A stretch of DNA of 39,062 nucleotides from Candidatus Yanofskybacteria bacterium CG10_big_fil_rev_8_21_14_0_10_36_16. GTDB lineage: Bacteria; Patescibacteriota; Minisyncoccia; 2-02-FULL-40-12; IGHO2-01-FULL-4-A. Below are positions 21,326 through 34,089 of the stretch, in pieces. The stretch is from the NCBI GenBank assembly GCA_002794035.1, contig PCXQ01000002.1, positions 1-39,062 of the forward strand, read 5' to 3'. The first letter of the stretch is position 1. The number at the start of each line of letters is the position of its first letter. Made by a program: the position numbers and the translations under genes. The notes beneath the pieces are model-generated. The model ran no database searches and was not told the origin of the DNA. It worked only from the letters and a program-made list of their open reading frames with translations.

Positions 21326-21356
21326 AAAAAGGCCGCCTTTTTAGGACGGCCTTTTT
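21326..21356 (-). terminator. terminator after the pilin-like gene
   Basis: aaaaaGGCCGCC-ttttta-GGaCGGCCttttt. Confidence 0.6.
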
Positions 21357-21372
21357 GGTTTAATTTACTAAA

Positions 21373-22923
21373 TTATATCTGTGCACAATCATGAGGCGTA
21401 TAGCCTGGGAGACAATATTCTCCAGAAGCCGGAGCACCGCACAAAATTGCCTGCTCCTGTGTTCCACTGTAGCTACACCTAAAGAAGGGCTGACAACCTC
21501 CGCCGGCAACAAGACATTCTTCTCCTGTGTACTGATAATCATACACAGTTCCTCCTGTTCCATACTGATCTGGCGTCAAATTTGTATCATAATTCAAAGA
21601 ATCTAGGTTTCTCAGACACTGTAGCCATTCATGGTAATAGTCATATCCGTATTGTTCACCGCATGTTTGGAAGCTGCCTTCAAATTGTTGTTCACAAAAT
21701 GCTGCCTTATCAGCTTCATATTCGGGTAAATTGAACCACTGCAAACAATCCACATAGCCTCCTTCGTCCCTAATATCGAAAGGATGCCTGCAAACCCCTC
21801 CCTCTTTTTGTTTTATGGTTGTTTCATTGCCGTCCGCATCAATACAATCAACATAAAGATAATCGCAATTGTCAGCATTAAAAACACATTCTGGCGGTGG
21901 TTCATATATTGGATCATTATGTCCATAAACCCATTCCTGTATAGGCGTCGGGCTGGCAAACACAATCTGTCTTGTGGGTATCGGAATGGAAGTTGGGGTA
22001 GGAATTTTTATTTCAGGAATCTCCAAACCAACAACATTGGTGGGTAGTGGAGGCGGTGGAGGGGGAGGCAGTGGTAGTGGGGTTTGATTAGCTCCAGCAA
22101 TAATCAAAGCATCAGCCTGAGCCTGAGACACCATCTCAAGACCCTTTGGCAATGAGCCCCCTACTATAGAAAAAGTGTAGGGAGTCGTCCCGCCAGCTGC
22201 GTGTACTTCTTGATAGTACCATTCATTAACAACGCCTGTAGCTAAAAAGCCTGTTGTAAATCTAACTATTGAACAGTCGGAATTTTGCGCGTGAGCTTCA
22301 TCTATTAATCTAAAGTTATAAGACACTTGCCGTATACTGCTTCCAGAATTTGCAGATCCCTGAAGTATGTCGAGTGTATAGGCTCTGGTACAACTATTTC
22401 CATTTGAATCAACAACTCTGAAAGACAATGGGAATGACCCCACAGCTTCCTGAGCTTCAGCTTGATTAATCAAGCCATTATTTGGTTCTGACTGAAGAGC
22501 GCCCTGAATAAACCCATTAACAAAACCAAGAATTACGACATTGTTGTTAACTACAACCTGCTGTTGCCCGCCTCCTTGAAAATTGTTTTGATTATTTAAA
22601 ATTTTAAAGAAATCAAAAGTATTTTGTGTTAAAGCAGGGTTTATGACATTCAATATCAGCCATGAAGCCAAAAGTAAAATAGCCCCAATTATGGCCTTTT
22701 GCATTTTATCTTTGGCTCCAGAAATCGCTCCAGAGTTGCCTGCTGCTGTCAGCCACTGGAATCCAGCTCTTAAAAACTGGATGAATACAGCAAGACCAAC
22801 AACCAAAAAAGCAAACCTATAAATTTGAACAATTAAATCAGCTATTCCTTCTTCGTCTTCTCCTACTAGGGATGGAATTTCGACCTGGGCATTTGCAATT
22901 TTGAACAGCAAATAATCTAACAT
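21373..22923 (-). CDS. TrbC/VirB2-like (T4SS pilin-like) N-terminal membrane domain fused to Ig-like, poly-Pro and Cys-rich extracellular regions
   Basis: N-terminus IYRFAFLVVGLAVFIQFLRAGFQWLTAAGNSGAISGAKDKMQKAIIGAILLLASWLILNVINPAL follows the CPR pilin-like two-TM pattern. GGTTPYTFSIVGGSLPKGL is Ig-like. Also PLPLPPPPPPPLPT and at least 16 Cys in the last ~170 aa. Confidence 0.5.
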   Translation of the reverse strand: MLDYLLFKIANAQVEIPSLVGEDEEGIADLIVQIYRFAFLVVGLAVFIQFLRAGFQWLTAAGNSGAISGAKDKMQKAIIGAILLLASWLILNVINPALTQNTFDFFKILNNQNNFQGGGQQQVVVNNNVVILGFVNGFIQGALQSEPNNGLINQAEAQEAVGSFPLSFRVVDSNGNSCTRAYTLDILQGSANSGSSIRQVSYNFRLIDEAHAQNSDCSIVRFTTGFLATGVVNEWYYQEVHAAGGTTPYTFSIVGGSLPKGLEMVSQAQADALIIAGANQTPLPLPPPPPPPLPTNVVGLEIPEIKIPTPTSIPIPTRQIVFASPTPIQEWVYGHNDPIYEPPPECVFNADNCDYLYVDCIDADGNETTIKQKEGGVCRHPFDIRDEGGYVDCLQWFNLPEYEADKAAFCEQQFEGSFQTCGEQYGYDYYHEWLQCLRNLDSLNYDTNLTPDQYGTGGTVYDYQYTGEECLVAGGGCQPFFRCSYSGTQEQAILCGAPASGEYCLPGYTPHDCAQI

Positions 22924-23060
22924 CGTTTATTAGCTTGGTAAAAGTTTGATAGTTCAAACCTTGAGATTATCTAAGGAAACTAACTATCTGAGCATTAGTT
23001 ACATCTCTGACATTACTGTCAAAGAACTAACAAATACTATTTTTATCAAGCTGTTTTTAA

Positions 23061-24095
23061 TTATAACCCCAAATATTTTCTCCTAGCTGTAACGTGTTCT
23101 TGGTAAGTTCTAGAGAATATTGTTTCACCTGTATCCCGAGTGTTCAAATAATAAAGATAATCACTCCCAAGTGGATTCAGAGATGCTTTAATAGAATTTA
23201 AACCGGGGTTAGAAATAGGGCCCTCAGGAAGACCCTTCCTTTTATATGTATTATACCTTGAATCTCTTGGAATATTATCCACAAGATTAACTTTTGTAAC
23301 ATCGCACACTTCTCCAGACAACCAAACATCCAAACAAACACCGTATGCAACTGTTGCGTCAAGCTCAAGAGCTTTATCTATCTCCATTCTTTTTTCTATC
23401 ATCCCAGAAACTAAACGCATATCATCGTAATTTCTAACCTCCTTTTCAAGCATGGAAGCTATGATCACAGCTCTTTTAATCTCCTCATTACTTAAACCAT
23501 TAAAAATTTCCCTAGTTCTTAAATTAAAATTATACTGCATTTTTTCTACAACATCTCCTGCAGATATTTTTTCCAGTTCCGGCGGAGGAAATCTGTAAGT
23601 ATCAGGAAAAAAGTACCCCTCCTTATCAAGTATATTTTTGTGCAACAAATCCCCTCTTTCAATTATGCCGGCATCAGCCAATCTTTTATCTATTTCTGAA
23701 ATATTCAAACCTTCTGGAATATTAACAACAATATCCTCGGATCTTGATAAACCCAAAGAGAATATCTTTACAAGCCTATGCGTACTCATAGATGAAGACA
23801 CGTCGTAATTTCCAGCCTTAAAGTTGTCTTCATTACCCGTTATCAAAGCGTGAATAACAAAAACCATTTCACTTCTTATTACACCCATTTCAGCCAGCAG
23901 AGAAGCTGTCTCTCTTACTGTCTGACCTTTTTCAATTTTTAAAATTTGAGTTTCGTGATAACCAGGAGACAAAGGAAGAAAAACCAAAAACGCCTCAATT
24001 AAAAACAGGACCAGTGCCATAATTACAGCTAATTGTTCGGGTTTGGAGCGCGAACGTATGCGCCTATAAACACGTTTTACGAACTTAAGAATCAA
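23061..24095 (-). CDS. mltG: endolytic transglycosylase MltG (YceG-like)
   Basis: N-terminal TM; LDATVAYG; YNTYKRKGLPEGPISNPGLNSIKASLNP; DYLYYL...FSRTYQEH. Confidence 0.85.
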   Translation of the reverse strand: MILKFVKRVYRRIRSRSKPEQLAVIMALVLFLIEAFLVFLPLSPGYHETQILKIEKGQTVRETASLLAEMGVIRSEMVFVIHALITGNEDNFKAGNYDVSSSMSTHRLVKIFSLGLSRSEDIVVNIPEGLNISEIDKRLADAGIIERGDLLHKNILDKEGYFFPDTYRFPPPELEKISAGDVVEKMQYNFNLRTREIFNGLSNEEIKRAVIIASMLEKEVRNYDDMRLVSGMIEKRMEIDKALELDATVAYGVCLDVWLSGEVCDVTKVNLVDNIPRDSRYNTYKRKGLPEGPISNPGLNSIKASLNPLGSDYLYYLNTRDTGETIFSRTYQEHVTARRKYLGL

Positions 24096-24125
24096 AATGA
24101 AATATCAAAATTAAAAACTCTGCCA

Positions 24126-24156
24126 AAACTTAAACCGGCCAAGCCGGCTTAAGTTT
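24126..24156 (-). terminator. terminator after the 823-aa gene
   Basis: AAACTTAAaCCGGC-caa-GCCGGcTTAAGTTT. Confidence 0.6.
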
Positions 24157-24200
24157 TACTAATCAATTTTGAATTTTGAATTCTGCACTTTTGTTGTGCG

Positions 24201-26672
24201 TTATAGGGGTTCCTGATCCAATACGTTGCCGGGGGGTATTATCCTTCTGCCCTCCTCAAGCTGTTGCAACCGTTGTTGGACTAATTCATTTCCAGGATTT
24301 AATCTTTCGATTTCTCTAACCTGACTAAGAGCATTTTCTATGTCCCCCCTCTCTTCATACATCAATGATAGATACCACCTGGCGTTTGAATAATCCGGGA
24401 ACAAAGATACGGCCTGCTGCCAAGCATTAAATGCTGCATCTTTTTGATTATTTCTATAATATAAAAGGCCAAGCTGGAAAACAATACTTGGATCTCTTGG
24501 GCTTGAAGCCCTAATAACCTCCAATCCGGCAATTGCCTGTTTCAAATTATTCATTCTTTCGAAAGCAGCGGACATATTGTATATAGCTCTGCCATTTGAC
24601 CTGTTAAGCTCTACTGCTTTTTGATAATTTTCAACTGACTTATTTAAGTTCTCATTTATTTTCTCCCTCAACTGATTAATCGTATTTATATCACTTCTGG
24701 GAGTTCTGTTTAGTGTTCTAGTCAAATTCTCAGCAATAGCAAGATAAGTGTTCCCCAACCTTGTATATGTCAAGGAGTTGTGTGGATCACGCAATAAAGA
24801 TTCTTTATACATTTCTATGGCTATATTTTCTGAACCGCCAACCAAGCCCATAAGATTTTGATAAATAAAACCTCGATTTGCCCAATTTCTTGCATCTGTC
24901 GGATTTATATCGGTACTTCTTTTTGCAATATCTACCGCCGATGCAATATTGTTTTGTATCTTTGCATTATGTGCCTGAGTCTCAGCAGGATCAACTTCTT
25001 TATTTAACTGATCTGCCAAAACAGCAATAATGGTTTGAGACAACTCTCTTGGATAAAAAGTTTCGTTTCTGTCGCTGTTTACAGCTTTAACGAGCCTCTC
25101 AATCTTACTATCATTATTATTTTCCTCTAAAGCATTGGCATAGTGATAGCTCGCCAAATACCTATTGGCTGTAAAATATCCCCCAGTCAACACACCAACA
25201 AGAGCAACAATGAATAATACCGATCCTAGAAGTGAAAGCACTGGCGATCCTTCAAGCTCCACCACCTTCTCTTCTGATTTGGGGTTGGCAATATCAAAAA
25301 GAAGCAAGGTGAAAACTGCCAAAAACGAAAGGACGATGTTAAAAGGATAAAGAAAGGCAGAAACCACAACGCCAACAATCAAAGGTATGCCATAAGCATT
25401 CCCTGTTCCGCTACCTTTTAGCATATCTCTAAAACGCCTAAATAGAGCTACCCCCAAAAACCAAGCAAATAACAAAAGACCAATTAGCCCAGATACTCCG
25501 CTTTCGGTAACTATATTCAAAACCTCGGAAGTCGCTTTATTAAACCTTACCTGTGAAAAAGGGGTGTTGGCTATGGCCTGAGGTTTAAATTTGTCATAAG
25601 AAATTCCATAGTTACTAATACCAAAACCGAATAAAGGTTTTTCTTTTATTGAATCCTTGAGAATACTAAAGGAACTTTTTTGAGACAAATTTATTTCAGT
25701 AGGTATTTTACTTCTTAGAGGTAAGCTAAGATCAATCAACATTAAGAATGTGCCCATAACAACAATTGCTAAGGGCATAACAAAAATATTCATGCGAATT
25801 CTTCCCATCTCAAAAACTCTTATAACCATCCAACCAACAAGAACAATAAACGCTGTTATCCATAAGGGCCACCAGTTTATCAAAACCAGCAAAAATAACG
25901 TAACCAACAAAGCCAAAAATCTGGAACCATCAAAAACTTTTTTCCAAAAACCAGTCATGGACTTTGAGGAAGACATGAAAAGAGGAAGACTCAAGGCAGC
26001 TACCATAACAAGAGTATTAAGGCTCCCAACAGTATTAAATGAACGCCCTACAGATCCCAAAAAATTAAATACACCAAGACCTAATACCTGCAAAACTCCT
26101 AGCAATAAAGCAATCGCAATAGAATAAATGTAAACATTTTTTAATCTCTTGCCGTTATCATCGATTACATTTAATCCCACAACAAACAAAACGGCCAGAA
26201 AGGCCCAAACAATAAAGGAGTCTGAGGAATTGGAAAAACCACCCATCAAACTTACATATTTATTAACCGAAAATAAAGAAGACAGCAAGATAAAACCTAT
26301 AAATACCCCCATGGGCAAATAGAAACTACTAGGCCTATATTTGAAGGTTCCCGTCTTAATAACATCTAAAAGATAAAAGATTGCGGCTCCACCTGACAAA
26401 ACAACCAAAAATATTTGCTTGTTGTAATCTAACGGACTGGCAGTAAAAGGCAAAACAAACAAAGGAATTAAAAACACAGTGGCATAAAAAAACCACTGTG
26501 AGATTTTTCTAAAATTAAAGCCACTGGGTTCCTCTGTATTAGCCCGGTGGTCTGCACCAATAAGCTCGGGTTCTTCTTGTGAACCCAAACCCTCTGAAGA
26601 ATCAAGGATATTCTTTTCTTCCTTGTATTCTTCCGATACATTGGAATTATTTCCATGAAAATTAATTTCCAT
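24201..26672 (-). CDS. O-antigen ligase (Wzy_C)-like polytopic membrane protein with C-terminal TPR repeats
   Basis: About 12 TM helices over residues 60-500, then repeated TPR-like units (YANALE, YTRLGNTYLA, YQKAVELN, FQLGLLYYRNNQKDAAFNAWQQAV, RWYLSLMYEERGD). Confidence 0.6.
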   Translation of the reverse strand: MEINFHGNNSNVSEEYKEEKNILDSSEGLGSQEEPELIGADHRANTEEPSGFNFRKISQWFFYATVFLIPLFVLPFTASPLDYNKQIFLVVLSGGAAIFYLLDVIKTGTFKYRPSSFYLPMGVFIGFILLSSLFSVNKYVSLMGGFSNSSDSFIVWAFLAVLFVVGLNVIDDNGKRLKNVYIYSIAIALLLGVLQVLGLGVFNFLGSVGRSFNTVGSLNTLVMVAALSLPLFMSSSKSMTGFWKKVFDGSRFLALLVTLFLLVLINWWPLWITAFIVLVGWMVIRVFEMGRIRMNIFVMPLAIVVMGTFLMLIDLSLPLRSKIPTEINLSQKSSFSILKDSIKEKPLFGFGISNYGISYDKFKPQAIANTPFSQVRFNKATSEVLNIVTESGVSGLIGLLLFAWFLGVALFRRFRDMLKGSGTGNAYGIPLIVGVVVSAFLYPFNIVLSFLAVFTLLLFDIANPKSEEKVVELEGSPVLSLLGSVLFIVALVGVLTGGYFTANRYLASYHYANALEENNNDSKIERLVKAVNSDRNETFYPRELSQTIIAVLADQLNKEVDPAETQAHNAKIQNNIASAVDIAKRSTDINPTDARNWANRGFIYQNLMGLVGGSENIAIEMYKESLLRDPHNSLTYTRLGNTYLAIAENLTRTLNRTPRSDINTINQLREKINENLNKSVENYQKAVELNRSNGRAIYNMSAAFERMNNLKQAIAGLEVIRASSPRDPSIVFQLGLLYYRNNQKDAAFNAWQQAVSLFPDYSNARWYLSLMYEERGDIENALSQVREIERLNPGNELVQQRLQQLEEGRRIIPPGNVLDQEPL

Positions 26673-26822
26673 GTATTTTTGCTAAAAATTTGTCTTGTCT
26701 CAACGGCCATAGCGATTAAGACTTAACCGAATTTTTAACTGATTAATTAATTGTCCGCCGATTTGTTACGAACGTATTCGACCAATCGGCAAATAATAAA
26801 CTTAGGTATGTTTCTTATTATA

Positions 26823-26873
26823 ATTATATAACACAGAGATTCACAGACAAAATATTGACCCCGCCCTTGAAAG
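26823..26873 (-). promoter_or_regulatory. GC-rich box plus extended -10 promoter facing the 823-aa gene
   Basis: Minus strand reads CTTTCAAGGGCGGGGTCAATA-22 nt-TATATAAT, preceded by TGT. Confidence 0.4.
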
Positions 26874-26952
26874 TTTGTATCGTATACAATCGCACTGTGT
26901 TTATGTATTAAAATTCAACAATTTTAAAATTGAGAAGAAAGATTTAATATTC

Positions 26953-26993
26953 TCAAGAGCGGGGTTGACTTATCAACAATTAATTGAGAAGAT
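26953..26993 (+). promoter_or_regulatory. GC-rich box plus -35/-10 facing the MerR-like gene
   Basis: TCAAGAGCGGGG-TTGACT-17 nt-GAAGAT. An alternative -10, TATACT at 27012-27017, would give a near-leaderless mRNA. Confidence 0.35.
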
Positions 26994-27025
26994 AAATTTA
27001 TTAATCTTTAGTATACTTAGTACAA

Positions 27026-27280
27026 ATGGATAAAAAATACCTAACAGTAAAAGAAGTGGCAAAACTTGTCGGAGTAACCCCTCTGACAATTCGTAACTGG
27101 GATAAAGCCGGTAAACTTATTGCCCATAGAAATCCCGTAAATAATTATAGGGTATATAAAACGGCAGATGTAGATAAACTAGTAGAAGACATTGAGGGAA
27201 GCAAAGGAAAGACATTCCCCCGCCCGCCAAAAGAACCGCCCAAACCAAAAACAAAAAAACTAATGATTGAAGAATTATAA
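27026..27280 (+). CDS. MerR-type / excisionase-like HTH DNA-binding protein
   Basis: LTVKEVAKLVGVTPLTIRNWDKAGKLIAHRNPVNNYRVYKTADVDKL is a MerR N-terminal HTH with no effector domain. Pro/Lys-rich tail. Confidence 0.7.
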   Translation: MDKKYLTVKEVAKLVGVTPLTIRNWDKAGKLIAHRNPVNNYRVYKTADVDKLVEDIEGSKGKTFPRPPKEPPKPKTKKLMIEEL

Positions 27281-27306
27281 AAACGGCTCATAATGAACCG
27301 TTTTTT
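27279..27306. terminator. bidirectional hairpin
   Basis: aaAACGGcTCA-taa-TGAaCCGTTtttt, between convergent genes. Confidence 0.55.
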
Positions 27307-27311
27307 ATATG

Positions 27312-27563
27312 TTAAGCCAAAAAGAAGTTTTTCCAGATAGCTACAACACATGAAATTGTATAAATCAAAGTTAATGTAAAAACACCGAATTGCTTATTGC
27401 GCCATGCAGTTATAAACCAAAATGGTTCCGTGGTAAAAGTGAGCACAAAACCCCAAGGAGCCCATGGATTGCCGACAGCTATCATAAAAAAGCCGATACT
27501 CCCAATTATCGCAATATACCACTGGCCAAACTTTTCAAAAGACACAAAACACCTCTTCTTCAC
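27312..27563 (-). CDS. small Trp-rich 3-TM membrane protein
   Basis: 83-aa ORF with a GTG start that overlaps the upstream gene stop (GTGA). Three hydrophobic helices; FWFITAWRNKQFG. Confidence 0.5.
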   Translation of the reverse strand: MKKRCFVSFEKFGQWYIAIIGSIGFFMIAVGNPWAPWGFVLTFTTEPFWFITAWRNKQFGVFTLTLIYTISCVVAIWKNFFLA

Positions 27564-28144
27564 GTTGTTGGATAAAAACCATCAGGAATGGGCATTCTTA
27601 CCAAATGAGCCTCTTCATACGGACGCTCCACTCGATTATAAATTTTCCATGTTCTAAGTCTTGTTTCTTCATGGGGGACCACGATTTTAGGATCACTACC
27701 TAAAATCTGGTTTTTCTCTTCATCAGTTGTCGGCCTAACTTCAAACAAGCCATTAAACGGATCTCGGACAAAAGTTGCTAAATCTTTTGCTGTCACATTT
27801 TGTATGGGAATGACCAGCCATACATACTGATTCCTTTCAAGAAACCACTTTGCCTCACTTGCCACACCAAGACCCAAGCGGCCATCCAGAAAAGGCACTG
27901 CGACGCAATTTGTGCAATGGGGCAATACTTCTTCATAATAATAGTTCATTCCCTTATGGTTAGTACTGCTCTCTACCTTTCTTCGGGCCCATTTGTCATA
28001 TCCCACCTGATGATGAGGTTGATTAGGATTCTCAATAAAATCCGAGTTTGAGCCGAATAATGTTCCGACAATCAACTTAACAAAAGCTTTCTCAACTGGC
28101 TTATTATAGGTATTAACTGGATGCGCAAAATACATTTTTTTCAT
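27560..28144 (-). CDS. hypothetical protein (weak resemblance to nucleoside 2-deoxyribosyltransferase-like fold)
   Basis: 194-aa ORF with SD AGGAG. N-terminal MYFAHPVNTY and VPFLDGRLGLGVASEAKWFLERNQYVWLV recall the beta1 strand and the D..G..E patterns of that superfamily. This is pattern impression only. TGA stop. Confidence 0.5.
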   Translation of the reverse strand: MKKMYFAHPVNTYNKPVEKAFVKLIVGTLFGSNSDFIENPNQPHHQVGYDKWARRKVESSTNHKGMNYYYEEVLPHCTNCVAVPFLDGRLGLGVASEAKWFLERNQYVWLVIPIQNVTAKDLATFVRDPFNGLFEVRPTTDEEKNQILGSDPKIVVPHEETRLRTWKIYNRVERPYEEAHLVRMPIPDGFYPTT

Positions 28145-28246
28145 TTCTTTCTCCTATTTTCTTATTAAATATCTGTCACTAGGTTACAAGGGTAAAATTT
28201 TTTTTAAAGTTTACAAATTCATAAATTATTTTAAAGCAAAAACCTC

Positions 28247-28879
28247 TTATTTGAGGTTTTGATTTACATTTTCCCTAATTTTTTTAAAAATTTTATATGA
28301 TTGCATTGCGCCATTTAATGCTGTATGGGGATAAGGCTCTTGTTTAATACCTAGCCGCTTGGAAATTTTGCCGGATCTAACACTAAACTCTCTGGGATCA
28401 TATATTACATTTGGCTCAAGCAATTCTTGAACAGCCATAGAGCGGGTATCTAAACGCGTATAGTGAAAAAATCTTGATAAATCTTCATTCAAAATATCAC
28501 AACAAACAAAAGCTACCTGTAAAAAATTCCAATCAAAGAAAAAATTGTGTCCTGTTGGAATAATTTTTTCCTGCCATTGACCCAAAAATTCGAAAAGTTT
28601 TTTTAAAGCACAGTTCAAAGATACAGCATCGTTCCACTCCCCATTAAATGCGCGCTTTGGATATTCATTAATTAAATTAGAAATGCATCTCTCGGGATGT
28701 TGTGGGTTTATTTTTATTTCGAACTCACCCAACTTATCAAAGTTAGGTTGGTCAGCCACGACCATTCCTATTTCAATAATTTCATGCCACGGGACTAAAA
28801 CATTACCGACTTTTTTTAAAGGATCATGCCCAGTTGTTTCAATATCAATAAATCCAAAAATGTATTCTTCTTTGGCCAC
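28247..28879 (-). CDS. DEDDh 3'-5' exonuclease (DnaQ/RNase T-like)
   Basis: ExoI FIDIETTG, ExoII GHNFFFDWNFL, ExoIII HTALNGAMQ. GTG start with AGGAG 7 nt upstream. Confidence 0.8.
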   Translation of the reverse strand: MAKEEYIFGFIDIETTGHDPLKKVGNVLVPWHEIIEIGMVVADQPNFDKLGEFEIKINPQHPERCISNLINEYPKRAFNGEWNDAVSLNCALKKLFEFLGQWQEKIIPTGHNFFFDWNFLQVAFVCCDILNEDLSRFFHYTRLDTRSMAVQELLEPNVIYDPREFSVRSGKISKRLGIKQEPYPHTALNGAMQSYKIFKKIRENVNQNLK

Positions 28880-29002
28880 AATTTTCTCCTGTTTTTACTA
28901 AAGTGCTTAAACAAGCATAATATTATAAAAAACAAAAATCAACTGCCGATCTTTTTTATAAATTTTTTATTCAAAAATGTATAAAACTAAAATTAAAAAA
29001 TA

Positions 29003-29054
29003 AACCCCCGTTAAAACGGGGGTTTCTATCCCACACTCATACATGAGTGTGGGG
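29003..29054 (-). terminator. tandem hairpins after the ~940-aa gene
   Basis: AAACCCCCG-ttaaa-CGGGGGTTT and CCCACACTCAT-aca-TGAGTGTGGG. On the minus strand the second hairpin is followed by a T run. Confidence 0.7.
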
Positions 29055-29069
29055 GTTTATTTAAATTTT

Positions 29070-31880
29070 TTAAACCGCTTTCGGTAAAAACTTATTCCAG
29101 TTAAATGATTTAGGATTTGCAAACCAATCTCTCAAATAATCATGCGGTAACATCTGCACAAGAATCGGACCTTCTTCGGGCCCACCAGCGGGAATGCTCA
29201 CAAAGCACACACCGGTGTTGTTGGGAGGAAATCCTCCTGAAGAGCCGTACATATTGGTATGGACGCTTGCTGCGCACATAATATATGTTAAATGATTAAC
29301 TTCAGCCTTGGCATAAAAGTGTTTATCACCATAAAAAGTAACTGTGGCAGTTTTTAAGAGACCATATGAATCATCTCCTCGGGCCAAATCATTTCGTATA
29401 ACTGATTTTAGAAGGTCAGACCAGCTTGATAACTTAGCCGGCGTACCATGGACCCTCATGCCCCAAGGATAACCATCGGGCGCTTGGACCGTACCCCAGC
29501 CAAATGTCTCATTGCCAAATCTGGGCGCTCTAATTGATTTACTCAAAAAATCAGGATTGTTTTTAAGATATTTTTGCCAAAACGGAAGTTGGGCAAGTTT
29601 TTCCTGCAAGTGGCGTGCAATATAATCGCCTTCAAGATCTCTTTGGTCAAGGGTTTTAATACGGTGATTACCATTAGGAAAATTGTGAATAGCCAAATCT
29701 CGCGTATCCACCATGCTTTTGTGGAAATCACTAATGCCGCGAATATTCAAACCAGATTTAACAAATCTTTCTAAAACTGCGCTATAAAAATCGACATTCG
29801 GGTCGATGTGTCGTTCATAAACCTGCATCATCTGATGGAACGGAAAATCTTCGCCCCTAAAATAAAGCTGTGAAATACTTACGCGATTAATATCGCTAGT
29901 TATCTCACGAACAAGTTCATGATCCCCTTGCTCAGAGGCCCTTTGAAGGTCAGAGGTCATTTGCAATAACCACCGTTCAAAATGTAAAATTTTCATTCGC
30001 TCAGGATCTGGCCGATAGCGAGGATTAAACCACATGTCGCCATTGGTAGCATCATCCATCTCGGCAGTCATGTGCAACCCAATATCTTTTGCATTAATTA
30101 CACCCTCACGACGCATCAACTCAATAGCCGCCTCTGTAACGCCAAGGTGGATCTTCTGAGCGGGGTCCCAAATATACCTTTTGTCAGGAGCACCAAAGTG
30201 GTTATCTGTGTTTAAGAATACATTAATATACTCTGTTTTGGGATAAGGAAAAGCAAAATTTTGATTATAAAACGGCCTGTCCTTATCCAATCTAGAAATT
30301 GGCAAGGATATGGTGTTGAGAATACCGTTACTCCAAGAAAGCAATAAAACTCCAGGCTTAAACATGGGGTTGTTCACCAGCTTTTGAACCTTGTGAACTT
30401 CCCTAATATTATTTCTAAATTCATCACGCAAAAAAACGTCATCAAGACAGCTGGGAGCAACAGCAACAAACTTTGTAACAGGCTTCCCATCTATGGAATC
30501 TTCTCTGCCCACCAATCGATGGTCTAAAGCAAATGGATGGCAAATAACAGTGAGATCAGCCAAGGTATCAGCAAACACCTCTGCGCCATAGGAATCGCCA
30601 TAACTAGCAAGCAACGAATCAGTAACCCTCTCGTGCTTAGGAATATGCGCTTTAACAATATGTTTATGAAGTTTAAAATATGCACTCCCCTGGCTAATAA
30701 CTTTAGCGTTAGGGATTGCTTCCTCAAACTTTTTAACAACAAAAGCTGTTATCTTGCGATTGAAGTATCTATAGTGACGATTATGTATGTTGCTTTGAAT
30801 TGTTCTAGCTTTTTTTCTGGTTAAGCGCATAACTTCGCTATCCCAATGTCTTATTTCACTAGTGTCATTGTCTTTCCTTGCTTTGGAAAAGCGCGACTTG
30901 GCCATGTTCAGCTCAGCTTCAATTTTCTTTTCTTTAACAATTTTTAAATACCTGCACTGATAATATGAAGCTGCCCTGATTAATTCCTCTTCTTTAAGGC
31001 CGAACATTATATACACAGGCCCCGGAAATTCTGGACCCTTATTTCTCGGCCTATGAGAAATTTTATGTAAAGCATCAATAATCTCATTAAACTTTTCTTC
31101 TAATGTCTGATAAATTAAATCATCAGTTATATTTCCTCTCAAAATATCTATAACTTCTTCCCGATATTCCTCAGGAAATCTTTTGGGGTTTGCTTCTAGT
31201 CCTGATACCTCAGCACGATAAGCCGCTAAGGGTCCCGCGGTCTTTTTTGACCAAAGGTCTAAGATGTTAACAAAAATCACAGCCTTAGCCCCGCGATTTC
31301 TAGCATCAGCAAAAGCTCGTCTTGTCGTATTACTTTCAATGTCGGGATACTTAATGCCGATAAGAGAACCATTAATAATAGATACCTGACCTTCTGGTTC
31401 CTCAGAAATAACGAAGGGGTTACTATAGGAATTATCAGGAAATTCATAATTCTCCAATCCTTCAGGAAGGTCGTCCAAAGAAGCAAAACGACCCATACCA
31501 GCCTTAAACTTAACAATAGATGATGATGTATTGCTGGTATAACCCTTTTTGGACTTCACTCTTTTCCTAATAATGCTTTTTGGTATATGAGGATGTGTTT
31601 CTTCAAATTTAGAAAGCATATCATTACCAACAGCTCTCCAAAGAAGCTTATCTACATCAGGTGTCCAGATTAATTCATCAAGGCGACTACTAATCACCTT
31701 TTGAGTCATAGTTGAACCGGCTAACTTATCGTGAAATTCTTCATTAATAATTTGGCAAATCTTGGCCAAACCACCATCCTGATTAAGCAATTGCTGGACC
31801 AGTTCTTTGCAACGCTTCTCTAATCCTGAGATTTTCCATATCTCTCTTTTCCTGTTTTTTTGATTAACTTCCTCAGACAT
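29070..31880 (-). CDS. large uncharacterised protein: Myb/SANT-like N-terminus, degenerate plus intact metallophosphoesterase-like halves
   Basis: Start placed at MSEEVNQ (31880), where AAGGAGG lies 5 nt upstream; the track start at 31898 has no SD. WTPDVDKLLWRAVGND is SANT/Myb-like. C-terminal half carries ordered MPE-like motifs NTDNHFG, DDATNGDMW, NGNHR, YGDKH, ASVH. In the N-terminal half the corresponding positions are non-catalytic (IINGSLIG, FVNILDLW). Confidence 0.6.
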   Translation of the reverse strand: MSEEVNQKNRKREIWKISGLEKRCKELVQQLLNQDGGLAKICQIINEEFHDKLAGSTMTQKVISSRLDELIWTPDVDKLLWRAVGNDMLSKFEETHPHIPKSIIRKRVKSKKGYTSNTSSSIVKFKAGMGRFASLDDLPEGLENYEFPDNSYSNPFVISEEPEGQVSIINGSLIGIKYPDIESNTTRRAFADARNRGAKAVIFVNILDLWSKKTAGPLAAYRAEVSGLEANPKRFPEEYREEVIDILRGNITDDLIYQTLEEKFNEIIDALHKISHRPRNKGPEFPGPVYIMFGLKEEELIRAASYYQCRYLKIVKEKKIEAELNMAKSRFSKARKDNDTSEIRHWDSEVMRLTRKKARTIQSNIHNRHYRYFNRKITAFVVKKFEEAIPNAKVISQGSAYFKLHKHIVKAHIPKHERVTDSLLASYGDSYGAEVFADTLADLTVICHPFALDHRLVGREDSIDGKPVTKFVAVAPSCLDDVFLRDEFRNNIREVHKVQKLVNNPMFKPGVLLLSWSNGILNTISLPISRLDKDRPFYNQNFAFPYPKTEYINVFLNTDNHFGAPDKRYIWDPAQKIHLGVTEAAIELMRREGVINAKDIGLHMTAEMDDATNGDMWFNPRYRPDPERMKILHFERWLLQMTSDLQRASEQGDHELVREITSDINRVSISQLYFRGEDFPFHQMMQVYERHIDPNVDFYSAVLERFVKSGLNIRGISDFHKSMVDTRDLAIHNFPNGNHRIKTLDQRDLEGDYIARHLQEKLAQLPFWQKYLKNNPDFLSKSIRAPRFGNETFGWGTVQAPDGYPWGMRVHGTPAKLSSWSDLLKSVIRNDLARGDDSYGLLKTATVTFYGDKHFYAKAEVNHLTYIMCAASVHTNMYGSSGGFPPNNTGVCFVSIPAGGPEEGPILVQMLPHDYLRDWFANPKSFNWNKFLPKAV

Positions 31881-31987
31881 AAAACCTCCTTTTCTCATAT
31901 AAGAATTTTAAATGTTCTTGCATTAATACTATCTTTATAAAAAACTGTAACAACTTGTCTTTAATTTTTTTGCGTTGTGTTACAACC

Positions 31988-32016
31988 AAAAAAACCGCTC
32001 TTATGAGCGGTTTTTT
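31988..32016. terminator. hairpin separating the small-peptide gene from the ~940-aa gene
   Basis: aaaaaaCCGCTC-ttat-GAGCGGtttttt. Confidence 0.7.
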
Positions 32017-32077
32017 GAATATAGATATCCACAATTAAATTTATTGCGACATTTATAGGTTATATAAAAAGAAAGAT

Positions 32078-32106
32078 CCGCTGTTCCTGTGCATCAGGAA
32101 CAGCGG
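32078..32106 (-). terminator. 12-bp perfect hairpin terminator of the small-peptide transcript
   Basis: CCGCTGTTCCTG-tgcat-CAGGAACAGCGG, followed on the minus strand by atctttcttttt. Confidence 0.7.
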
Positions 32107-32134
32107 TTGAGAGATCGGTCAAATCGACCTCTCT

Positions 32135-32233
32135 CTATTGCTCCGGCCCACAGGCCGGATGATCCTTTAGCGACGGTGCGAGCACCATCGCTAACAGAAT
32201 CAGAAACACTGGAATAATCAGAACGTACTGCAT
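32135..32233 (-). CDS. 32-aa hydrophobic peptide (candidate small membrane protein or toxin)
   Basis: TTGTAA-17 nt-TATAAT (32268-32263) with an extended TG, SD AAGGGAGG, and ATG at 32233. Translation: MQYVLIIPVFLILLAMVLAPSLKDHPACGPEQ, TAG stop. Local GC is about 50%, clearly above the surroundings. Confidence 0.5.
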   Translation of the reverse strand: MQYVLIIPVFLILLAMVLAPSLKDHPACGPEQ

Positions 32234-32362
32234 GGCAGAACCTCCCTTACCTAACTATTTATATTATAACACAAAATATGTATTATTACAAGTGCTGCAA
32301 ATATCGCCTCCCGAGTTAATTATACGAAAATAGAGCTTATTTTTTAAGTTGTTGAATAGAAT

Positions 32363-32381
32363 TGCGGGGGCACATGGACTC
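32363..32381 (-). repeat. 19-nt copy of a tRNA 3' end (T-loop end + T stem + acceptor + discriminator)
   Basis: Plus strand tgcgggggcacAtggactc is 18/19 identical to 32483-32501. Confidence 0.7.
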
Positions 32382-32484
32382 CCTTCGACTCATTGCATTC
32401 GCTCAGGATAAACTTCTCGTCCTATCACAAAAAAAACGGCAAGTTCAGCATAAATCTAAAGCTTGCACTGAGTTTGCAAAAGTG

Positions 32485-32509
32485 CGGGGGCACCTGGACT
32501 CGAACCAGG
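32485..32509 (-). pseudogene. orphan tRNA 3' fragment (Trp-like): T arm + acceptor 3' strand + discriminator G
   Basis: Minus strand reads CCTGG-TTCGAGT-CCAGG-TGCCCCC-G. No D arm or anticodon arm lies upstream of it. Confidence 0.7.
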
Positions 32510-32646
32510 AAGTTCGGTTTTGTCCCGATTTTTCTTCCCCGCCTTAGCGGGGTTAGAAAATCAAGGATCCACGATTTTGTAATCTTGCTTCAGTAAGAAC
32601 AAAATCAGGAGAGACTAGTGATTTGCTTCACCTACCCAAATTTTTG

Positions 32647-32718
32647 CGGGAGTAGTAGGACTCGAACCTACAGTCCTGGTTTTGGAGACCAGTGGTTTGC
32701 CAATTAACCGATACTCCC
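32647..32718 (-). tRNA. trnW: tRNA-Trp (anticodon CCA)
   Basis: GGGAGTA TC GGTT AATTGGCA AACC A CTGGT CTCCAAA ACCAG GACT GTAGG TTCGAGT CCTAC TACTCCC G folds as a full cloverleaf. CCA is not encoded. Confidence 0.93.
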
Positions 32719-32740
32719 ACACAAAGCAAAAACTTGGGCG

Positions 32741-32762
32741 GGCAAGTTAAGCTTATACCCCC
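32741..32762 (-). pseudogene. orphan tRNA 5' fragment (Trp-like acceptor 5' strand + D-arm remnant)
   Basis: Minus strand GGGGGTATAAGCTTAACTTGCC. GGGGGTA pairs 7/7 (one G-U) with the TGCCCCC of the orphan 3' fragments, and it resembles the 5' region of the intact tRNA-Trp. Confidence 0.45.
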
Positions 32763-32896
32763 AAGAAAGCAAATTTTAAAACTTTACTCGTTTGCTCAAG
32801 TTCAAGATAAAATCAAGATTTGGAACGAAGCGTACTTAAAAGTACGTTGAGTTTCAAAGCGACGATTTTAACAAAGAAATTGGTCGAACCAGAAAG

Positions 32897-32943
32897 GCTA
32901 ATTTCGGAATAAGCCCTTCCGTATTTGGGCTTCCGAAATTAGC
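32897..32943 (-). terminator. 13-bp hairpin downstream of rpmG
   Basis: GCTAATTTCGGAA...TTCCGAAATTAGC. Confidence 0.55.
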
Positions 32944-32956
32944 GAGTAGTTTTAAT

Positions 32957-33115
32957 TTATTTTTTGCTTTCCTTATGAGTTGTGTGCTTCCTGCACCACT
33001 TGCAGAATTTTTTAAATTCCAGCTTTCTTTCAACTAATTTTTTGTTCTTGGTTGTATAGTAGTTGAATCTTTTGCAGTCTCCACACTTCATTTTTAACAA
33101 ATTATCTTGTGACAT
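32957..33115 (-). CDS. rpmG: 50S ribosomal protein L33
   Basis: Not in ORF track (52 aa). [52 protein letters not shown] has the CxxC...CxxC L33 pattern. Confidence 0.9.
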
Positions 33116-33270: not shown

Positions 33271-33436
33271 TTAGCTAGCTCCTCTTGATTTAATTGTGAG
33301 CCAGGAGGCGATGAAAGACAAGGGTTTGGCTTTCATCCTCAATTTTATAAATTCTTTGTCTTTAAGTCGATCATGTGCCGTTAAAAAATTGAGCAGAACA
33401 TACCTAATGCCAGTTCAAATCTTTCTGTTTTCATTT

Positions 33437-33480
33437 CTTATCTCAGGATAATATTTTTTTAAATATTATCCTGAGATAAG
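33437..33480. repeat. 20-bp perfect inverted repeat (hairpin, 4-nt loop)
   Basis: CTTATCTCAGGATAATATTT-tttt-AAATATTATCCTGAGATAAG, directly abutting the tRNA-Tyr 3' fragment copy. Confidence 0.85.
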
Positions 33481-33482
33481 AT

Positions 33483-33495
33483 TGTGGGCCGGGAG
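33483..33495 (-). repeat. 13-nt duplicate of the tRNA-Tyr 3' end
   Basis: tgtgggccgggag is identical to 33662-33674 (acceptor 3' strand and start of the T stem, plus 2 trailing nt). Confidence 0.7.
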
Positions 33496-33499
33496 TGGA

Positions 33500-33660
33500 G
33501 ACAAAGTGAACTGCTTCACTTTGTCCAGAATTTTAACGTAGCGTCCTCGTGGAGTGTTTAAAAATTCTGTCGAACCCTGTCGAGCAAAGCTCGACTTATT
33601 CGAATATTTCCATATTCTATTGTCTTAAATTAATTGGATTTTAATCCAATTAATTTGAGA
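33500..33660. repeat. train of four further hairpins between tRNA-Tyr and its 3' duplicate
   Basis: 33500-33525: 11-bp perfect. 33526-33569: about 11 bp with a 1-nt bulge. 33579-33595: 7-bp perfect. 33623-33660: 14-bp perfect palindrome extending to about 18 bp. Confidence 0.8.
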
Positions 33661-33663
33661 CTG

Positions 33664-33747
33664 TGGGCCGGGAGGGATTCGAACCCCCGTAGGTCTAAGA
33701 CCGCGTGGTTTACAGCCACGTGCGATTGGCCACTCCGCCACCGACCC
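33664..33747 (-). tRNA. trnY: tRNA-Tyr (anticodon GTA), class II with long variable arm
   Basis: GGGTCGG TG GCG GAGTGGCCAAT CGC A CGTGG CTGTAAA CCACG CGGTCTTAGACCTAC GGGGG TTCGAAT CCCTC CCGGCCC A. Confidence 0.92.
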
Positions 33748-33756: not shown

Positions 33757-34006
33757 TTATTTTAAAAGTTTTTTAAATGCCTCACCACCTTTATATTTTT
33801 TAATTTGTCTCTAGTGTCTTAAAGCCACTTCTTTGCTATTATGCTGTTCATAAAATTCTTAATATTAACGGCCGACGATTTTTCGTTGATTTAGTAGCGC
33901 CACTGTTATGTTTTTCAATTCTATTTTTTATATTACTTGTTGAGCCAATAAAATATTTACTATCTTTTTTACTTTTTAATACATAAATATACCATTTTTT
34001 ATCCAT
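33757..34006 (-). pseudogene. decayed GIY-YIG (URI-domain, COG2827-like) endonuclease gene
   Basis: MDKKWYIYVLKSKKDSKYFIGSTSNIKNRIEKHNSGATKSTKNRRPLILRIL* (TGA at 33850-33848). The +1 frame then continues EFYEQHNSKEVALRH*RQIKKYKGGEAFKKLLK*. That makes one frameshift and one in-frame TAG at the conserved Glu position. Confidence 0.75.
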
Positions 34007-34037
34007 AAATCCTCAGACCGCCCTGCTTATAGAGGGA

Positions 34038-34089
34038 TGCGATTGGCCACTTTTTAACCCCGCCAAGGGCGGTGGCCGCCACCGACCCA
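34038..34089 (-). pseudogene. tRNA-Tyr 5' fragment (nt 1-13 and 15-27) split by a ~24-nt GC-rich hairpin insertion
   Basis: Minus strand reads GGGTCGGTGGCGG-[ccaccgcccttggcggggttaaaaa]-GTGGCCAATCGCA. Both blocks are identical to the intact tRNA-Tyr, and the sequence diverges afterwards. Confidence 0.75.

What the first reader, a model, noticed from the sequence alone, without database searches (positions are those of the whole stretch)
27026..32016. Uncharacterised nucleic-acid-enzyme gene block next to a remnant-littered tRNA cluster
Between envelope genes and the tRNA cluster sit five genes with no obvious housekeeping role. They are a MerR/excisionase-like HTH (plus strand, driven by one of the GC-box promoters), a translationally coupled 194-aa unknown plus 83-aa 3-TM protein (GTGA overlap), a stand-alone DEDDh exonuclease, and a ~940-aa protein with a metallophosphoesterase-like catalytic half. 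The 194-aa and 940-aa proteins did not resolve to any family I recognise. No integrase, transposase or phage structural gene is present, but the block lies on the 3' side of tRNA-Trp, where orphan tRNA 3' ends (32363-32509) mark past insertion or replacement events. A DNA-binding regulator plus two predicted nuclease/phosphoesterase-type enzymes plus a membrane component fits two readings: an undescribed anti-phage or anti-plasmid module, or a nucleic-acid scavenging module in a nucleotide-auxotrophic episymbiont. Both are hypotheses.
Basis: partly seen in the sequence, partly recalled or inferred. Interest (0 to 1): 0.7.

Follow-up and report, generated by a model that had tools for sequence, protein, structure and literature searches.

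The report
Conserved Parcubacteria phosphoesterase gene neighbourhood
The five genes are real but are not a mobile or anti-phage island: their core is a large, unnamed metallophosphoesterase-fold protein that has sat beside tRNA-Trp throughout a whole group of tiny symbiotic bacteria, repeatedly paired with an exonuclease and a deoxyribosyltransferase-like protein, probably for processing or salvaging nucleic acids.

Summary
All five ORFs exist at the stated coordinates. They are not one accessory module.

- **942-aa protein:** It is really 936 aa, starting at Met7. It has a confident model whose fold matches calcineurin-like metallophosphoesterases (BFVD E=7.6e-7). Its C-terminal half keeps the motifs DxH, DD, GNH and H. 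It has no Pfam family.
- **Position:** The gene is inherited vertically. The order tRNA-Thr/Tyr/Thr/Trp → 942-aa gene → HTH → TPR membrane gene → YceG → L10/L12 recurs in relatives whose 942-aa protein is only about 35% identical.
- **No island signature:** No repeat brackets the block, no viral contig carries the family, and no PADLOC system is hit.
- **194-aa protein:** It is a new branch of the N-(deoxy)ribosyltransferase-like fold, on weak but convergent evidence. It lies within 3 kb of the 942-aa gene in about 14 distant loci.
- **Exonuclease:** The exact order 942→exonuclease→194 recurs in two distant lineages.
- **HTH:** It is a backbone gene.
- **83-aa ORF:** It is an orphan with no homologue anywhere.
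- **Missing partner:** The commonest partner of the 942-aa gene, a 12-TM triple-repeat membrane protein in 38 of 54 loci, is absent from the window.

Best reading: a lineage-conserved cytoplasmic nucleic-acid/nucleotide processing (salvage) cluster. The function is inferred, not shown.

The parts
29070..31880 (-). p942: large cytoplasmic protein (936 aa from Met7; the ORF extends to 31898). It has a helical N-domain (about residues 20-117), a middle region with degenerate metallophosphoesterase-like motifs, and a C-terminal half with intact metallophosphoesterase motifs.
   Evidence: ORF. Start site. AF2 model with pLDDT 82 and pTM 0.77. Foldseek against BFVD gives 9 hits at E<=1e-3, best 7.6e-7, to calcineurin-like phosphatases. 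The top PDB hits are PolD DP1 and Mre11 but are weak, E 0.02-0.3. Conserved D565xH567, D615D616, G743N744H745, H860 and H880 in 26 homologues. No hit in Pfam, PHROG, PADLOC or NCBIfam.
28247..28879 (-). exo210: stand-alone DnaQ-like 3'-5' exonuclease-fold protein with an atypical motif III.
   Evidence: Pfam RNase_T 3.5e-7, 31.4 bits against a cut-off of 24. PADLOC DEDDh 1.7e-13 and PHROG 192 1.1e-13. Orthologues at 51-53% identity lie directly after the p942 gene in L008, L035 and L037. Motifs DxETTG and FFDW are conserved; motif III is H-x3-N-G.
27560..28144 (-). p194: member of a Parcubacteria-wide family. It has an N-terminal Rossmann-like core of N-(deoxy)ribosyltransferase type with an invariant Glu97, plus a family-specific C-terminal extension.
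   Evidence: At least 145 clusters at 42-64% identity. Invariant or near-invariant residues. AF2 pLDDT 93. The top Foldseek PDB hit is nucleoside 2'-deoxyribosyltransferase 9ezk_A (prob 0.89, E 0.07), followed by DNPH1 and 1f8x. The profile hits YtoQ 8of6 at E 0.063. Relatives weakly hit DUF4406, DUF7768 and Nuc_deoxyrib_tr. It lies within 3 kb of p942 in about 14 loci.
27312..27563 (-). TM83: orphan small ORF with three hydrophobic segments (83 aa from GTG 27563, or 77 aa from GTG 27545).
   Evidence: The only hit in 5.8 billion proteins is itself. It is absent from all 58 related loci. It is unrelated to c400 and to the 83-aa CBU_0592-family gene of L010.
27026..27280 (+). HTH84: small MerR/excisionase/BldC-type HTH without an effector domain. 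It is a conserved backbone gene, convergent with the p942 unit and divergent from the TPR membrane gene.
   Evidence: Pfam MerR 4.8e-12. NCBIfam excisionase and BldC. Orthologues at 55-70% identity lie downstream of p942 in about 20 loci, next to the TPR823 orthologue in 11 of them.
29002..29025 (-). Intrinsic-terminator-like hairpin after p942. It separates p942 from the exonuclease gene.
   Evidence: 10-bp stem with 6 GC pairs and a T-run.
27279..27305 (-). Terminator-like hairpin between the convergent TM83 and HTH genes.
   Evidence: 12-bp stem and a T-run.
32363..32501 (-). Two tandem orphan tRNA 3'-end fragments (T-arm plus acceptor, ...GAGTCCAGGTGCCCCCGCA). They lie between tRNA-Trp and p942 and do not bracket the block.
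   Evidence: 2 matches; 0 in 100 shuffles; family D1.
32646..32718 (-). tRNA-Trp(cca), the conserved upstream neighbour of p942 in many relatives.
   Evidence: The synteny is shown.

Best explanation
The block is a local version of an ancient, vertically inherited gene neighbourhood of Paceibacteria/Parcubacteria (CPR). It is not an inserted island.

**The anchor.** The 936-aa cytoplasmic protein p942 has a C-terminal half that is a two-metal metallophosphoesterase. The region before it looks like a degenerate copy of the same fold that has lost its metal ligands.

**The partners.** p942 is repeatedly linked to three other genes: a DnaQ-like exonuclease; p194, a protein with an N-(deoxy)ribosyltransferase/DNPH1-like fold and an invariant Glu after a glycine-rich loop; and, in most genomes but not this one, a 12-TM triple-repeat membrane protein (c400).

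**Most likely mechanism (inferred).**
1. p942 cleaves phosphoester bonds in nucleic acids or nucleotides.
2. The exonuclease trims fragments to mononucleotides.
3. p194 cleaves or transfers the N-glycosidic bond of (deoxy)nucleosides or (deoxy)nucleotides.
4. The products feed salvage enzymes such as IMPDH and NT5C, which are often encoded next door.

**The other two genes.** The HTH is a conserved backbone regulator, convergent with this unit. The 83-aa ORF is a genome-specific orphan.

**Shown:** gene existence, folds, motif conservation, synteny and co-occurrence. **Inferred:** substrates and the pathway.
For: **Vertical inheritance and synteny**
- The backbone S2-EF-Ts-TPR-tRNAs-(L33)-p942-...-HTH-TPR~790aa-YceG-L10-L12 is shared by L004-L007, L011, L012, L020, L027, L028 and L043.
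- tRNA-Trp lies immediately upstream of p942 in L004, L017, L026, L027 and L036. In L021 and L023 one gene intervenes.
- No repeat brackets the block.
- p942 is absent from IMG/VR viral contigs.

**Linkage between the genes**
- p194 lies within about 3 kb of p942 in L002, L008-L010, L014, L015, L017, L029, L032, L035, L041, L044, L046 and L047.
- The order p942→exo→p194 recurs in L008 and L035, and p942→exo in L037.
- c400 is next to p942 in 38 of 54 loci.

**p942 fold and active site**
- BFVD hits reach E=7.6e-7, to calcineurin-like phosphatases.
- The top PDB hits are DP1 and Mre11.
- Motifs I-IV are invariant in 26 homologues that are 34-65% identical to p942.

**p194 fold**
- Foldseek's top hit is NDT, followed by DNPH1.
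- The profile hits YtoQ.
- Relatives weakly hit DUF4406 and Nuc_deoxyrib_tr.

**Nucleotide context**
- IMPDH lies directly upstream of p942 in 8 loci.
- NT5C lies next to p194 in L002.
- The p194 core domain is found fused to NT5C, PHP and AAA_33.
Against: - No enzymatic function is demonstrated.
- No p942 family member hits the Pfam Metallophos model, even at E<=1. PDB fold hits are not significant.
- The assignment of p194 to the NDT-like fold rests on several weak signals (E 0.06-0.07), and TIR/CARF folds score similarly.
- The p942-p194 linkage is frequent but not universal. It is absent within 8-10 kb in L001, L004-L007, L013, L018 and L019.
- The exonuclease lacks the canonical last Asp.
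- p942's commonest neighbours also include envelope or membrane genes (c400, TPR823, YceG) and PCMT, so a substrate other than nucleic acid is possible.
- The internal duplication of p942 is not supported by sequence (hhalign probability 6%).
Confidence: 0.55

Rival explanations
1. DNA repair or recombination nuclease. p942 would be a covalently fused pseudo-dimer analogue of Mre11/SbcD, or of the PolD DP1 proofreading exonuclease. It would act on chromosomal DNA ends together with the DnaQ-like exonuclease. p194 would act on damaged bases or nucleotides, as DNPH1 does.
For: The top PDB structural neighbours are PolD DP1 and Mre11. Some BFVD hits are annotated 'DNA polymerase II small subunit' and 'DNA repair exonuclease'. 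A DnaQ-like exonuclease is adjacent. RecR lies about 10 kb away on the same contig.
Against: The PDB hits are not significant (E>=0.02). No SbcC/Rad50-like ATPase or DP2 gene lies next to p942 in any of the 54 loci. The recurring neighbours are IMPDH, a membrane protein and PCMT, not repair genes.
Confidence: 0.2
2. Envelope or membrane-associated phosphoesterase. p942 would work with the 12-TM c400 protein, and with the neighbouring TPR membrane protein and YceG, on a substrate that is not a nucleic acid. Candidates are a lipid-linked or polymer-linked phosphodiester or a cyclic dinucleotide. The links to the exonuclease and p194 would be incidental.
For: c400 is the commonest neighbour (38 of 54 loci). 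TPR823 and YceG are syntenic. The metallophosphoesterase fold does not itself specify a substrate (established knowledge of the superfamily).
Against: p942 has no signal peptide or TM segment (sequence). p194 and c400 both cluster with p942, sometimes together (L014, L015, L044, L046, L047). The IMPDH/NT5C context and the p194 fusions point to nucleotides.
Confidence: 0.15
3. One reading: an undescribed anti-phage or anti-plasmid defence module inserted next to tRNA-Trp.
For: The block contains nuclease-type folds and an HTH that hits the MADS mad1 model (6.7e-15). The p194 fold is also shared with TIR/CARF domains. tRNA remnants and a GIY-YIG ORF show that the tRNA cluster has been a site of rearrangement. 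The gene content flanking p942 is variable.
Against: p942 and the HTH are syntenic across deep lineages. There are no bracketing repeats, no integrase, no PADLOC system-level match and no presence on viral contigs. The mad1 hit is a generic HTH match: the NCBIfam MAD1 equivalog scores 15.4 bits against a cut-off of 80.
Confidence: 0.07

Closest known systems
Calcineurin-like metallophosphoesterase superfamily, nuclease branch (Mre11/SbcD; PolD small subunit DP1; phage 'metallo-dependent phosphatase' proteins)
   Same: The C-terminal half of p942 carries motifs I-IV (DxH, D-D, GNH, H) in the canonical order. Its predicted fold matches phage calcineurin-like phosphoesterases (E down to 7.6e-7). 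DP1 and Mre11 are its best PDB neighbours.
   Different: No Pfam Metallophos hit. The protein is about 940 aa. It has an extra helical N-domain, a preceding region with ligand-less look-alike motifs (INGxxxG / TN / LGxxEEE), and two three-helix insertions. Motif III is GNH-R, not GNH-D/E. No Rad50/SbcC or DP2 partner is encoded nearby. The family is restricted to Paceibacteria-type CPR.
N-(deoxy)ribosyltransferase-like fold: nucleoside 2'-deoxyribosyltransferase (NDT), DNPH1/Rcl, YtoQ, DUF4406
   Same: p194 has a flavodoxin-like core with the first strand at the extreme N-terminus (YFAHP) and an invariant Glu97 after a Gly-rich loop (DGRxGxGVxxE). NDT and DNPH1 place their catalytic Glu at the same point (the last statement is from my own knowledge). 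NDT is the top Foldseek hit, and YtoQ is the only PDB sequence hit.
   Different: All matches are below significance thresholds. p194 has a conserved insert ENPNQPHHQ and a family-specific C-terminal extension of about 75 aa (HEETRLRTW...RPYEEAHL...GFYP). No Pfam model covers it.
DnaQ-like DEDDh 3'-5' exonucleases (RNase T, Pol III epsilon, oligoribonuclease)
   Same: The Pfam RNase_T hit is above the gathering score. Motifs Exo I (DxE) and Exo II (FFD) are conserved.
   Different: Motif III reads H-x3-N-G, so the fourth acidic residue is missing. The protein is stand-alone, not fused to a polymerase or helicase.
Small MerR-like/excisionase-family HTH proteins (BldC, Xis-type)
   Same: The whole 84-aa protein is essentially the MerR-type winged HTH.
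   Different: It has no effector or dimerisation domain. No integrase is adjacent. It is a conserved chromosomal backbone gene.

Membership tests
Calcineurin-like metallophosphoesterase superfamily (p942 C-terminal half) | Motif I D-x-H | tested here: met
   [ST]-D565-x-H567-[FWY]-G is invariant in 26 homologues.
Calcineurin-like metallophosphoesterase superfamily (p942 C-terminal half) | Motif II G-D-x-x-D (bridging Asp) | tested here: met
   D615-D616-x-T-x-G, with both Asp invariant. The Gly before the Asp is not conserved, so this is a variant form.
Calcineurin-like metallophosphoesterase superfamily (p942 C-terminal half) | Motif III G-N-H-[D/E] | tested here: met
   G743-N744-H745 is conserved. 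The fourth residue is R, F or L, not D/E.
Calcineurin-like metallophosphoesterase superfamily (p942 C-terminal half) | Motifs IV and V (His ligands, G-H-x-H) | tested here: inconclusive
   H860 (GDKHF) is invariant. H880 is present in 22 of 26 sequences. There is no literal GHxH.
Calcineurin-like metallophosphoesterase superfamily (p942 C-terminal half) | Match to the family's sequence model (Pfam Metallophos/Metallophos_2) | tested here: not met
   No hit at E<=1 in any of the 26 members.
Calcineurin-like metallophosphoesterase superfamily (p942 C-terminal half) | Fold similarity | tested here: met
   BFVD gives 9 hits at E<=1e-3, of which 8 are calcineurin-like or unnamed; the best is 7.6e-7 at prob 1.00. 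PDB hits are weak.
Mre11/SbcD nuclease | Partner SMC-like ATPase (Rad50/SbcC) encoded with it | tested here: not met
   No such gene lies next to p942 in the 54 loci.
PolD DP1 | Partner catalytic subunit DP2 | tested here: not met
   No large partner gene recurs near p942. Whole genomes could not be searched.
N-(deoxy)ribosyltransferase-like superfamily (p194) | Fold similarity to NDT/DNPH1 | tested here: inconclusive
   The top Foldseek hit is NDT 9ezk_A, with prob 0.89 but E 0.07 and TM 0.38-0.45. TIR and CARF score similarly.
N-(deoxy)ribosyltransferase-like superfamily (p194) | Conserved catalytic Glu after a Gly-rich loop | tested here: met
   D87...G93...E97 are invariant in 30 sequences. 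G93 and E97 are at least 90% conserved in 68 sequences. The equivalence to the NDT/DNPH1 nucleophile is inferred.
N-(deoxy)ribosyltransferase-like superfamily (p194) | Match to family sequence models | tested here: not met
   The window protein has no hit. Among 68 relatives, DUF4406 is hit by 4 (best 2.6e-4), Nuc_deoxyrib_tr by 3 (0.013), and YtoQ in the PDB at E 0.063. All are sub-threshold.
DEDDh exonuclease (exo210) | Exo I D-x-E, Exo II D, and a match to the RNase_T model | tested here: met
   DIETTG and FFFDW are present. RNase_T scores 31.4 bits against a cut-off of 24.
DEDDh exonuclease (exo210) | Exo III H-x4-D | tested here: not met
   The motif is H-x3-N-G in the window and in all three orthologues.
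Known anti-phage defence systems (PADLOC-DB v2) | Hits to the system's component proteins in one locus | tested here: not met
   Only a generic HTH hit (mad1) and generic DEDDh hits. p942, p194 and TM83 have none.
tRNA-integrated genomic island | Integrase, att direct repeats bracketing the cargo, and variable presence among relatives | tested here: not met
   No integrase. The tRNA-end repeat occurs only at 32363-32501. The tRNA-Trp→p942 adjacency is conserved in distant relatives.

The most novel reading that the evidence does not exclude
p942, p194, the DnaQ-like exonuclease and the 12-TM triple-repeat protein c400 together form a previously undescribed system specific to Paceibacteria. It would import nucleic acids or nucleosides taken from the host or the environment, dismantle them and re-base them. 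p942 would be a fused pseudo-heterodimeric metallophosphoesterase nuclease, and p194 would found a new clade of N-glycosidic-bond enzymes. This would be a dedicated salvage machine that helps explain how these nucleotide-auxotrophic episymbionts obtain DNA and RNA precursors.
Probability: 0.25. Interest if true: 0.7.

Novelty: new variant of a known kind. Interest (0 to 1): 0.42.

Why it matters
CPR/Patescibacteria lack de novo nucleotide synthesis, and how they obtain and recycle nucleotides is an open question.

This work identifies three unnamed protein families that cluster with each other and with IMPDH and NT5C across many Paceibacteria lineages:
- a ~940-aa protein with a metallophosphoesterase fold;
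- a new deoxyribosyltransferase-like branch whose core domain has more than 650 representative relatives;
- a 12-TM membrane protein built from three repeats.

These are concrete candidates for biochemical work that can be expressed and tested. The result also removes a false lead, because the locus is not a defence island or a mobile element.

Tried and rejected
1. **Internal duplication of p942.** A profile-profile comparison of the N- and C-halves gave only a 35-column match at 6% probability. The 'pseudo-dimer' idea therefore rests on motif resemblance alone.
2. **PDB sequence searches.** Profiles of p942 and p194 gave zero hits at E<=10. A broader p194 profile gave only YtoQ at E 0.063.
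3. **c400 as a fusion or relative of exo+p194, or TM83 as a fragment of c400.** hhalign and hmmsearch found no relationship.
4. **TM83 against the 83-aa CBU_0592-family gene beside p194 in L010.** No similarity.
5. **tRNA remnants as partial tRNA genes.** Rfam at E<=1 does not recognise them.
6. **Literature.** Searches for YtoQ and for Parcubacteria nucleotide salvage found nothing relevant to these families.
7. **Pfam on all p942 members.** This was run to rescue a Metallophos hit, and none appeared.

Full report
**1. Observation**

The five ORFs are at the stated coordinates.
- HTH84 (27026-27280, +) is a MerR/excisionase-type HTH. It scores 45.9 bits on Pfam MerR against a cut-off of 28.2, and also hits TIGR01764 'excise' and the BldC subfamily.
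- exo210 (28247-28879, -) matches RNase_T above the gathering score.
- p194 (27560-28144, -), TM83 (27312-27563, -) and p942 (29070-31898, -) match no family in Pfam, PHROGs, PADLOC or NCBIfam.
- Four tRNAs follow: Trp 32646-32718, Thr, Tyr and Thr, all on the minus strand.
- The flanks are housekeeping genes. On one side are L7/L12, L10, a pilin-like protein, YceG and a TPR membrane protein. On the other are a small TPR protein, EF-Ts, S2, RF and L25.
- The orphan tRNA 3' ends are real. GAGTCCAGGTGCCCCCGCA occurs at 32483-32501, and a copy with one mismatch at 32363-32381. Shuffled sequence gives 0 matches. The tRNA cluster holds further tRNA-Tyr fragments.

- p942 most likely starts at Met7 (31880) behind AAGGAGG. 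Public gene calls give 936 aa.
- TM83 is called as 77 aa from GTG 27545, so the GTGA overlap is only one possible reading.
- Terminator-like hairpins follow p942 and TM83, so the block is not a single operon.
- Motif III of the exonuclease is H-x3-N-G, not H-x4-D, in all four orthologues.

**2. Is it an island? No.**

- p942 has about 43 homologous clusters, all unnamed CPR proteins. A scan of GTDB species representatives returned 48 loci in lineages labelled Yanofsky-, Giovannoni-, Lloyd-, Azam-, Sungi- and Tagabacteria and 'Paceibacterota'.
- In relatives with 50-59% identical p942, the same backbone recurs: S2 - EF-Ts - small TPR - tRNA cluster/L33 - p942 - HTH - TPR ~790-aa - YceG - L10 - L12.
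- tRNA-Thr/Tyr/Thr/Trp followed by p942 is also found where p942 is only about 35% identical (L023, L026, L027, L036) and in L017. The position 3' of tRNA-Trp is therefore ancestral.
- The tRNA-end repeat is confined to 32363-32501 and does not bracket the block.
- p942 is absent from 2.9 million viral contigs.
- PADLOC gives no system-level hit.
- What does vary is the handful of genes inserted on either side of p942.

**3. Which genes belong together?**

I ran tblastn with the window's proteins and clustered all ORFs from the 58 loci then held.
- p194 lies within about 3 kb of p942 in roughly 14 loci and is directly adjacent in about 9. These include loci labelled Lloydbacteria (L002, L041), Liptonbacteria (L008) and Azambacteria (L009).
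- The window's exact order p942→exo→p194 recurs in L008 and L035, and p942→exo in L037.
- HTH84 orthologues (55-70% identity) lie convergently downstream of p942 in about 20 loci, usually divergent from the TPR823 orthologue. The HTH is therefore a backbone gene.
- TM83 occurs nowhere else. Its only match in 5.8 billion proteins is itself.
- Unexpectedly, p942's commonest neighbour (38 of 54 loci) is a ~400-aa protein, c400, which the window lacks entirely. c400 is a polytopic membrane protein made of three tandem repeats of about 125 aa (self-hhalign E≈5e-50). It has no Pfam family and only a faint TauE-like signal.
- IMPDH sits immediately upstream of p942 in 8 loci, and PCMT recurs nearby.
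- NT5C is next to p194 in L002.

**4. What are the proteins?**

*p942*
- The AF2 model is confident (pLDDT 82, pTM 0.77).
- Against the PDB, the top hits are PolD DP1 and Mre11, but they are weak (E 0.02-0.3).
- Against BFVD there are 9 hits at E<=1e-3 (best 7.6e-7, prob 1.00). All but one are annotated as calcineurin-like or metallo-dependent phosphatases, or are unnamed.
- In 26 homologues that are 34-65% identical to p942, the C-terminal half conserves [ST]-D565-x-H567-[FWY]-G, D615-D616, G743-N744-H745, G-D-K-H860-F and usually H880. This is the canonical order of metallophosphoesterase motifs I-V.
- The preceding region has look-alike motifs without metal ligands: INGxxxG, TN211 and LGxxE303-E-E. 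This suggests a degenerate second copy, but sequence does not support a duplication.
- No member hits Pfam Metallophos.

*p194*
- The model is very confident (pLDDT 93).
- The best PDB match is nucleoside 2'-deoxyribosyltransferase (prob 0.89, E 0.07), followed by DNPH1. TIR and CARF domains score similarly.
- An exhaustive profile search finds 657 representative relatives. Most are stand-alone proteins of 120-160 aa that match only the N-terminal core. A few are fusions to NT5C, PHP or AAA_33 domains.
- A 68-sequence profile hits only YtoQ in the PDB (E 0.063).
- Members hit DUF4406, DUF7768 and Nuc_deoxyrib_tr weakly.
- Tyr5, Asp87, Gly93 and Glu97 are invariant in the full-length family, and Glu97 stays at least 90% conserved in the 68-sequence set. 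These residues fit a catalytic Glu after a glycine-rich loop, as in NDT and DNPH1 (that comparison is from my own knowledge).
- Each signal is weak, but they all point the same way.

**5. Mechanism**

*Shown:* the folds, the motif conservation, vertical synteny, recurrent linkage of p942 with p194, exo and c400, and a nucleotide-metabolism context.

*Inferred:* p942 hydrolyses phosphoester bonds in nucleic acids or nucleotides. exo210 trims the fragments to mononucleotides. p194 cleaves or transfers N-glycosidic bonds. c400, where present, may transport substrates or products. The products feed salvage enzymes such as IMPDH and NT5C.

*Rivals:* a DNA-repair nuclease of Mre11/DP1 type, an envelope-associated phosphoesterase working with c400, and anti-phage defence. 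The synteny largely excludes the defence reading.

**6. Novelty and verdict**

The enzymes belong to known superfamilies. Three things appear undescribed: the p942 architecture, the p194 family and c400 (none of which has a Pfam model), and their conserved clustering. Literature searches found nothing on them.

The finding as written, an accessory nuclease block at a tRNA insertion site, is not supported. What is there is a lineage-conserved, probably housekeeping, gene neighbourhood for nucleic-acid or nucleotide processing.

Interest is moderate: useful candidate genes for CPR nucleotide salvage, but no surprising biology has been demonstrated.

Noticed in passing
L001:10945-12117(-), L007:6698-7882(+), and 36 further loci; absent from the window: c400 is a ~400-aa, roughly 12-TM protein built from three tandem repeats of about 125 aa (motifs SRxxxRNSxxY ... 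PYxVGxxxGxxxG ... IEKK). It has no Pfam family. It is the commonest neighbour of the p942 gene (38 of 54 loci) and lies in either orientation. The window's genome lacks it within these 39 kb.
   Followed up: partly
window 33848-34089 (-): A 52-aa GIY-YIG ORF (33848-34006) lies directly downstream of a degraded partial copy of tRNA-Tyr (34012-34089; 73-100% identical to parts of the real tRNA-Tyr at 33663-47). This looks like the footprint of a small GIY-YIG element inserted into the tRNA cluster. GIY-YIG ORFs recur in 7 related loci.
   Followed up: partly
window 33291-33307, 33479-33495: Two further orphan copies of the tRNA-Tyr 3' end (AGAYTGTGGGCCGGGAG; 76% and 94% identical to each other and to the real 3' end at 33658-33674).
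   Followed up: no
window 33420-33496: A long, near-perfect hairpin that draws many spurious miRNA-precursor hits in a relaxed Rfam scan. It lies between tRNA-Thr(ggt) and tRNA-Tyr. Its function is unknown.
   Followed up: no
window 32138-32233 (-) and 32078-32106 (-): A small ORF with a strong RBS (GGGAGG) encodes a hydrophobic 32-aa peptide, MQYVLIIPVFLILLAMVLAPSLKDHPACGPEQ. Two strong hairpins follow it, including a 12-bp terminator-like stem. It lies between the tRNA remnants and p942.
   Followed up: no
window 26928-26953 and 26982-27007: A 26-nt direct repeat (AATTGAGAAGAWARATTTA...; 85% identity, 54-nt spacing) lies just upstream of the HTH start, in the intergenic region between the divergent HTH and TPR823 genes. 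It is a candidate operator for the HTH.
   Followed up: no
P0200, P0211, P0271 (relatives of p194): The p194 core domain occurs fused to NT5C deoxyribonucleotidase, a PHP phosphoesterase and an AAA_33 kinase-like domain. It also occurs fused to Peptidase_M50 and to a methyltransferase. The stand-alone core domain of about 140 aa has no Pfam or PHROG model, despite more than 650 representative relatives.
   Followed up: partly
L010:6626-6877 (-): An 83-aa, 3-TM gene of the CBU_0592 family (precomputed PF26604) lies next to the p194 orthologue. It has the same size and topology as the window's TM83 but no detectable sequence similarity.
   Followed up: partly
window 28247-28879 (-); L008, L035, L037 orthologues: This exonuclease subfamily replaces the canonical DEDDh motif III (H-x4-D) with H-x3-N-G. 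It may have altered metal binding or activity.
   Followed up: partly
L049 (CAZNVD010000059.1) and many CAY*/CAZ* loci: One p942 locus is a 3.3-kb contig in a MAG labelled 'Methanosarcinales archaeon', which is probably binning contamination. Many loci labelled 'uncultured Candidatus Saccharibacteria' carry Paceibacteria-type synteny, so the record labels look unreliable.
   Followed up: no
window 19949-33115: p942 and its neighbours lie between L33/tRNA-Trp and L10-L12. In many bacteria (from my own knowledge) this interval holds secE-nusG-L11-L1. Those genes are not in this interval here.
   Followed up: no
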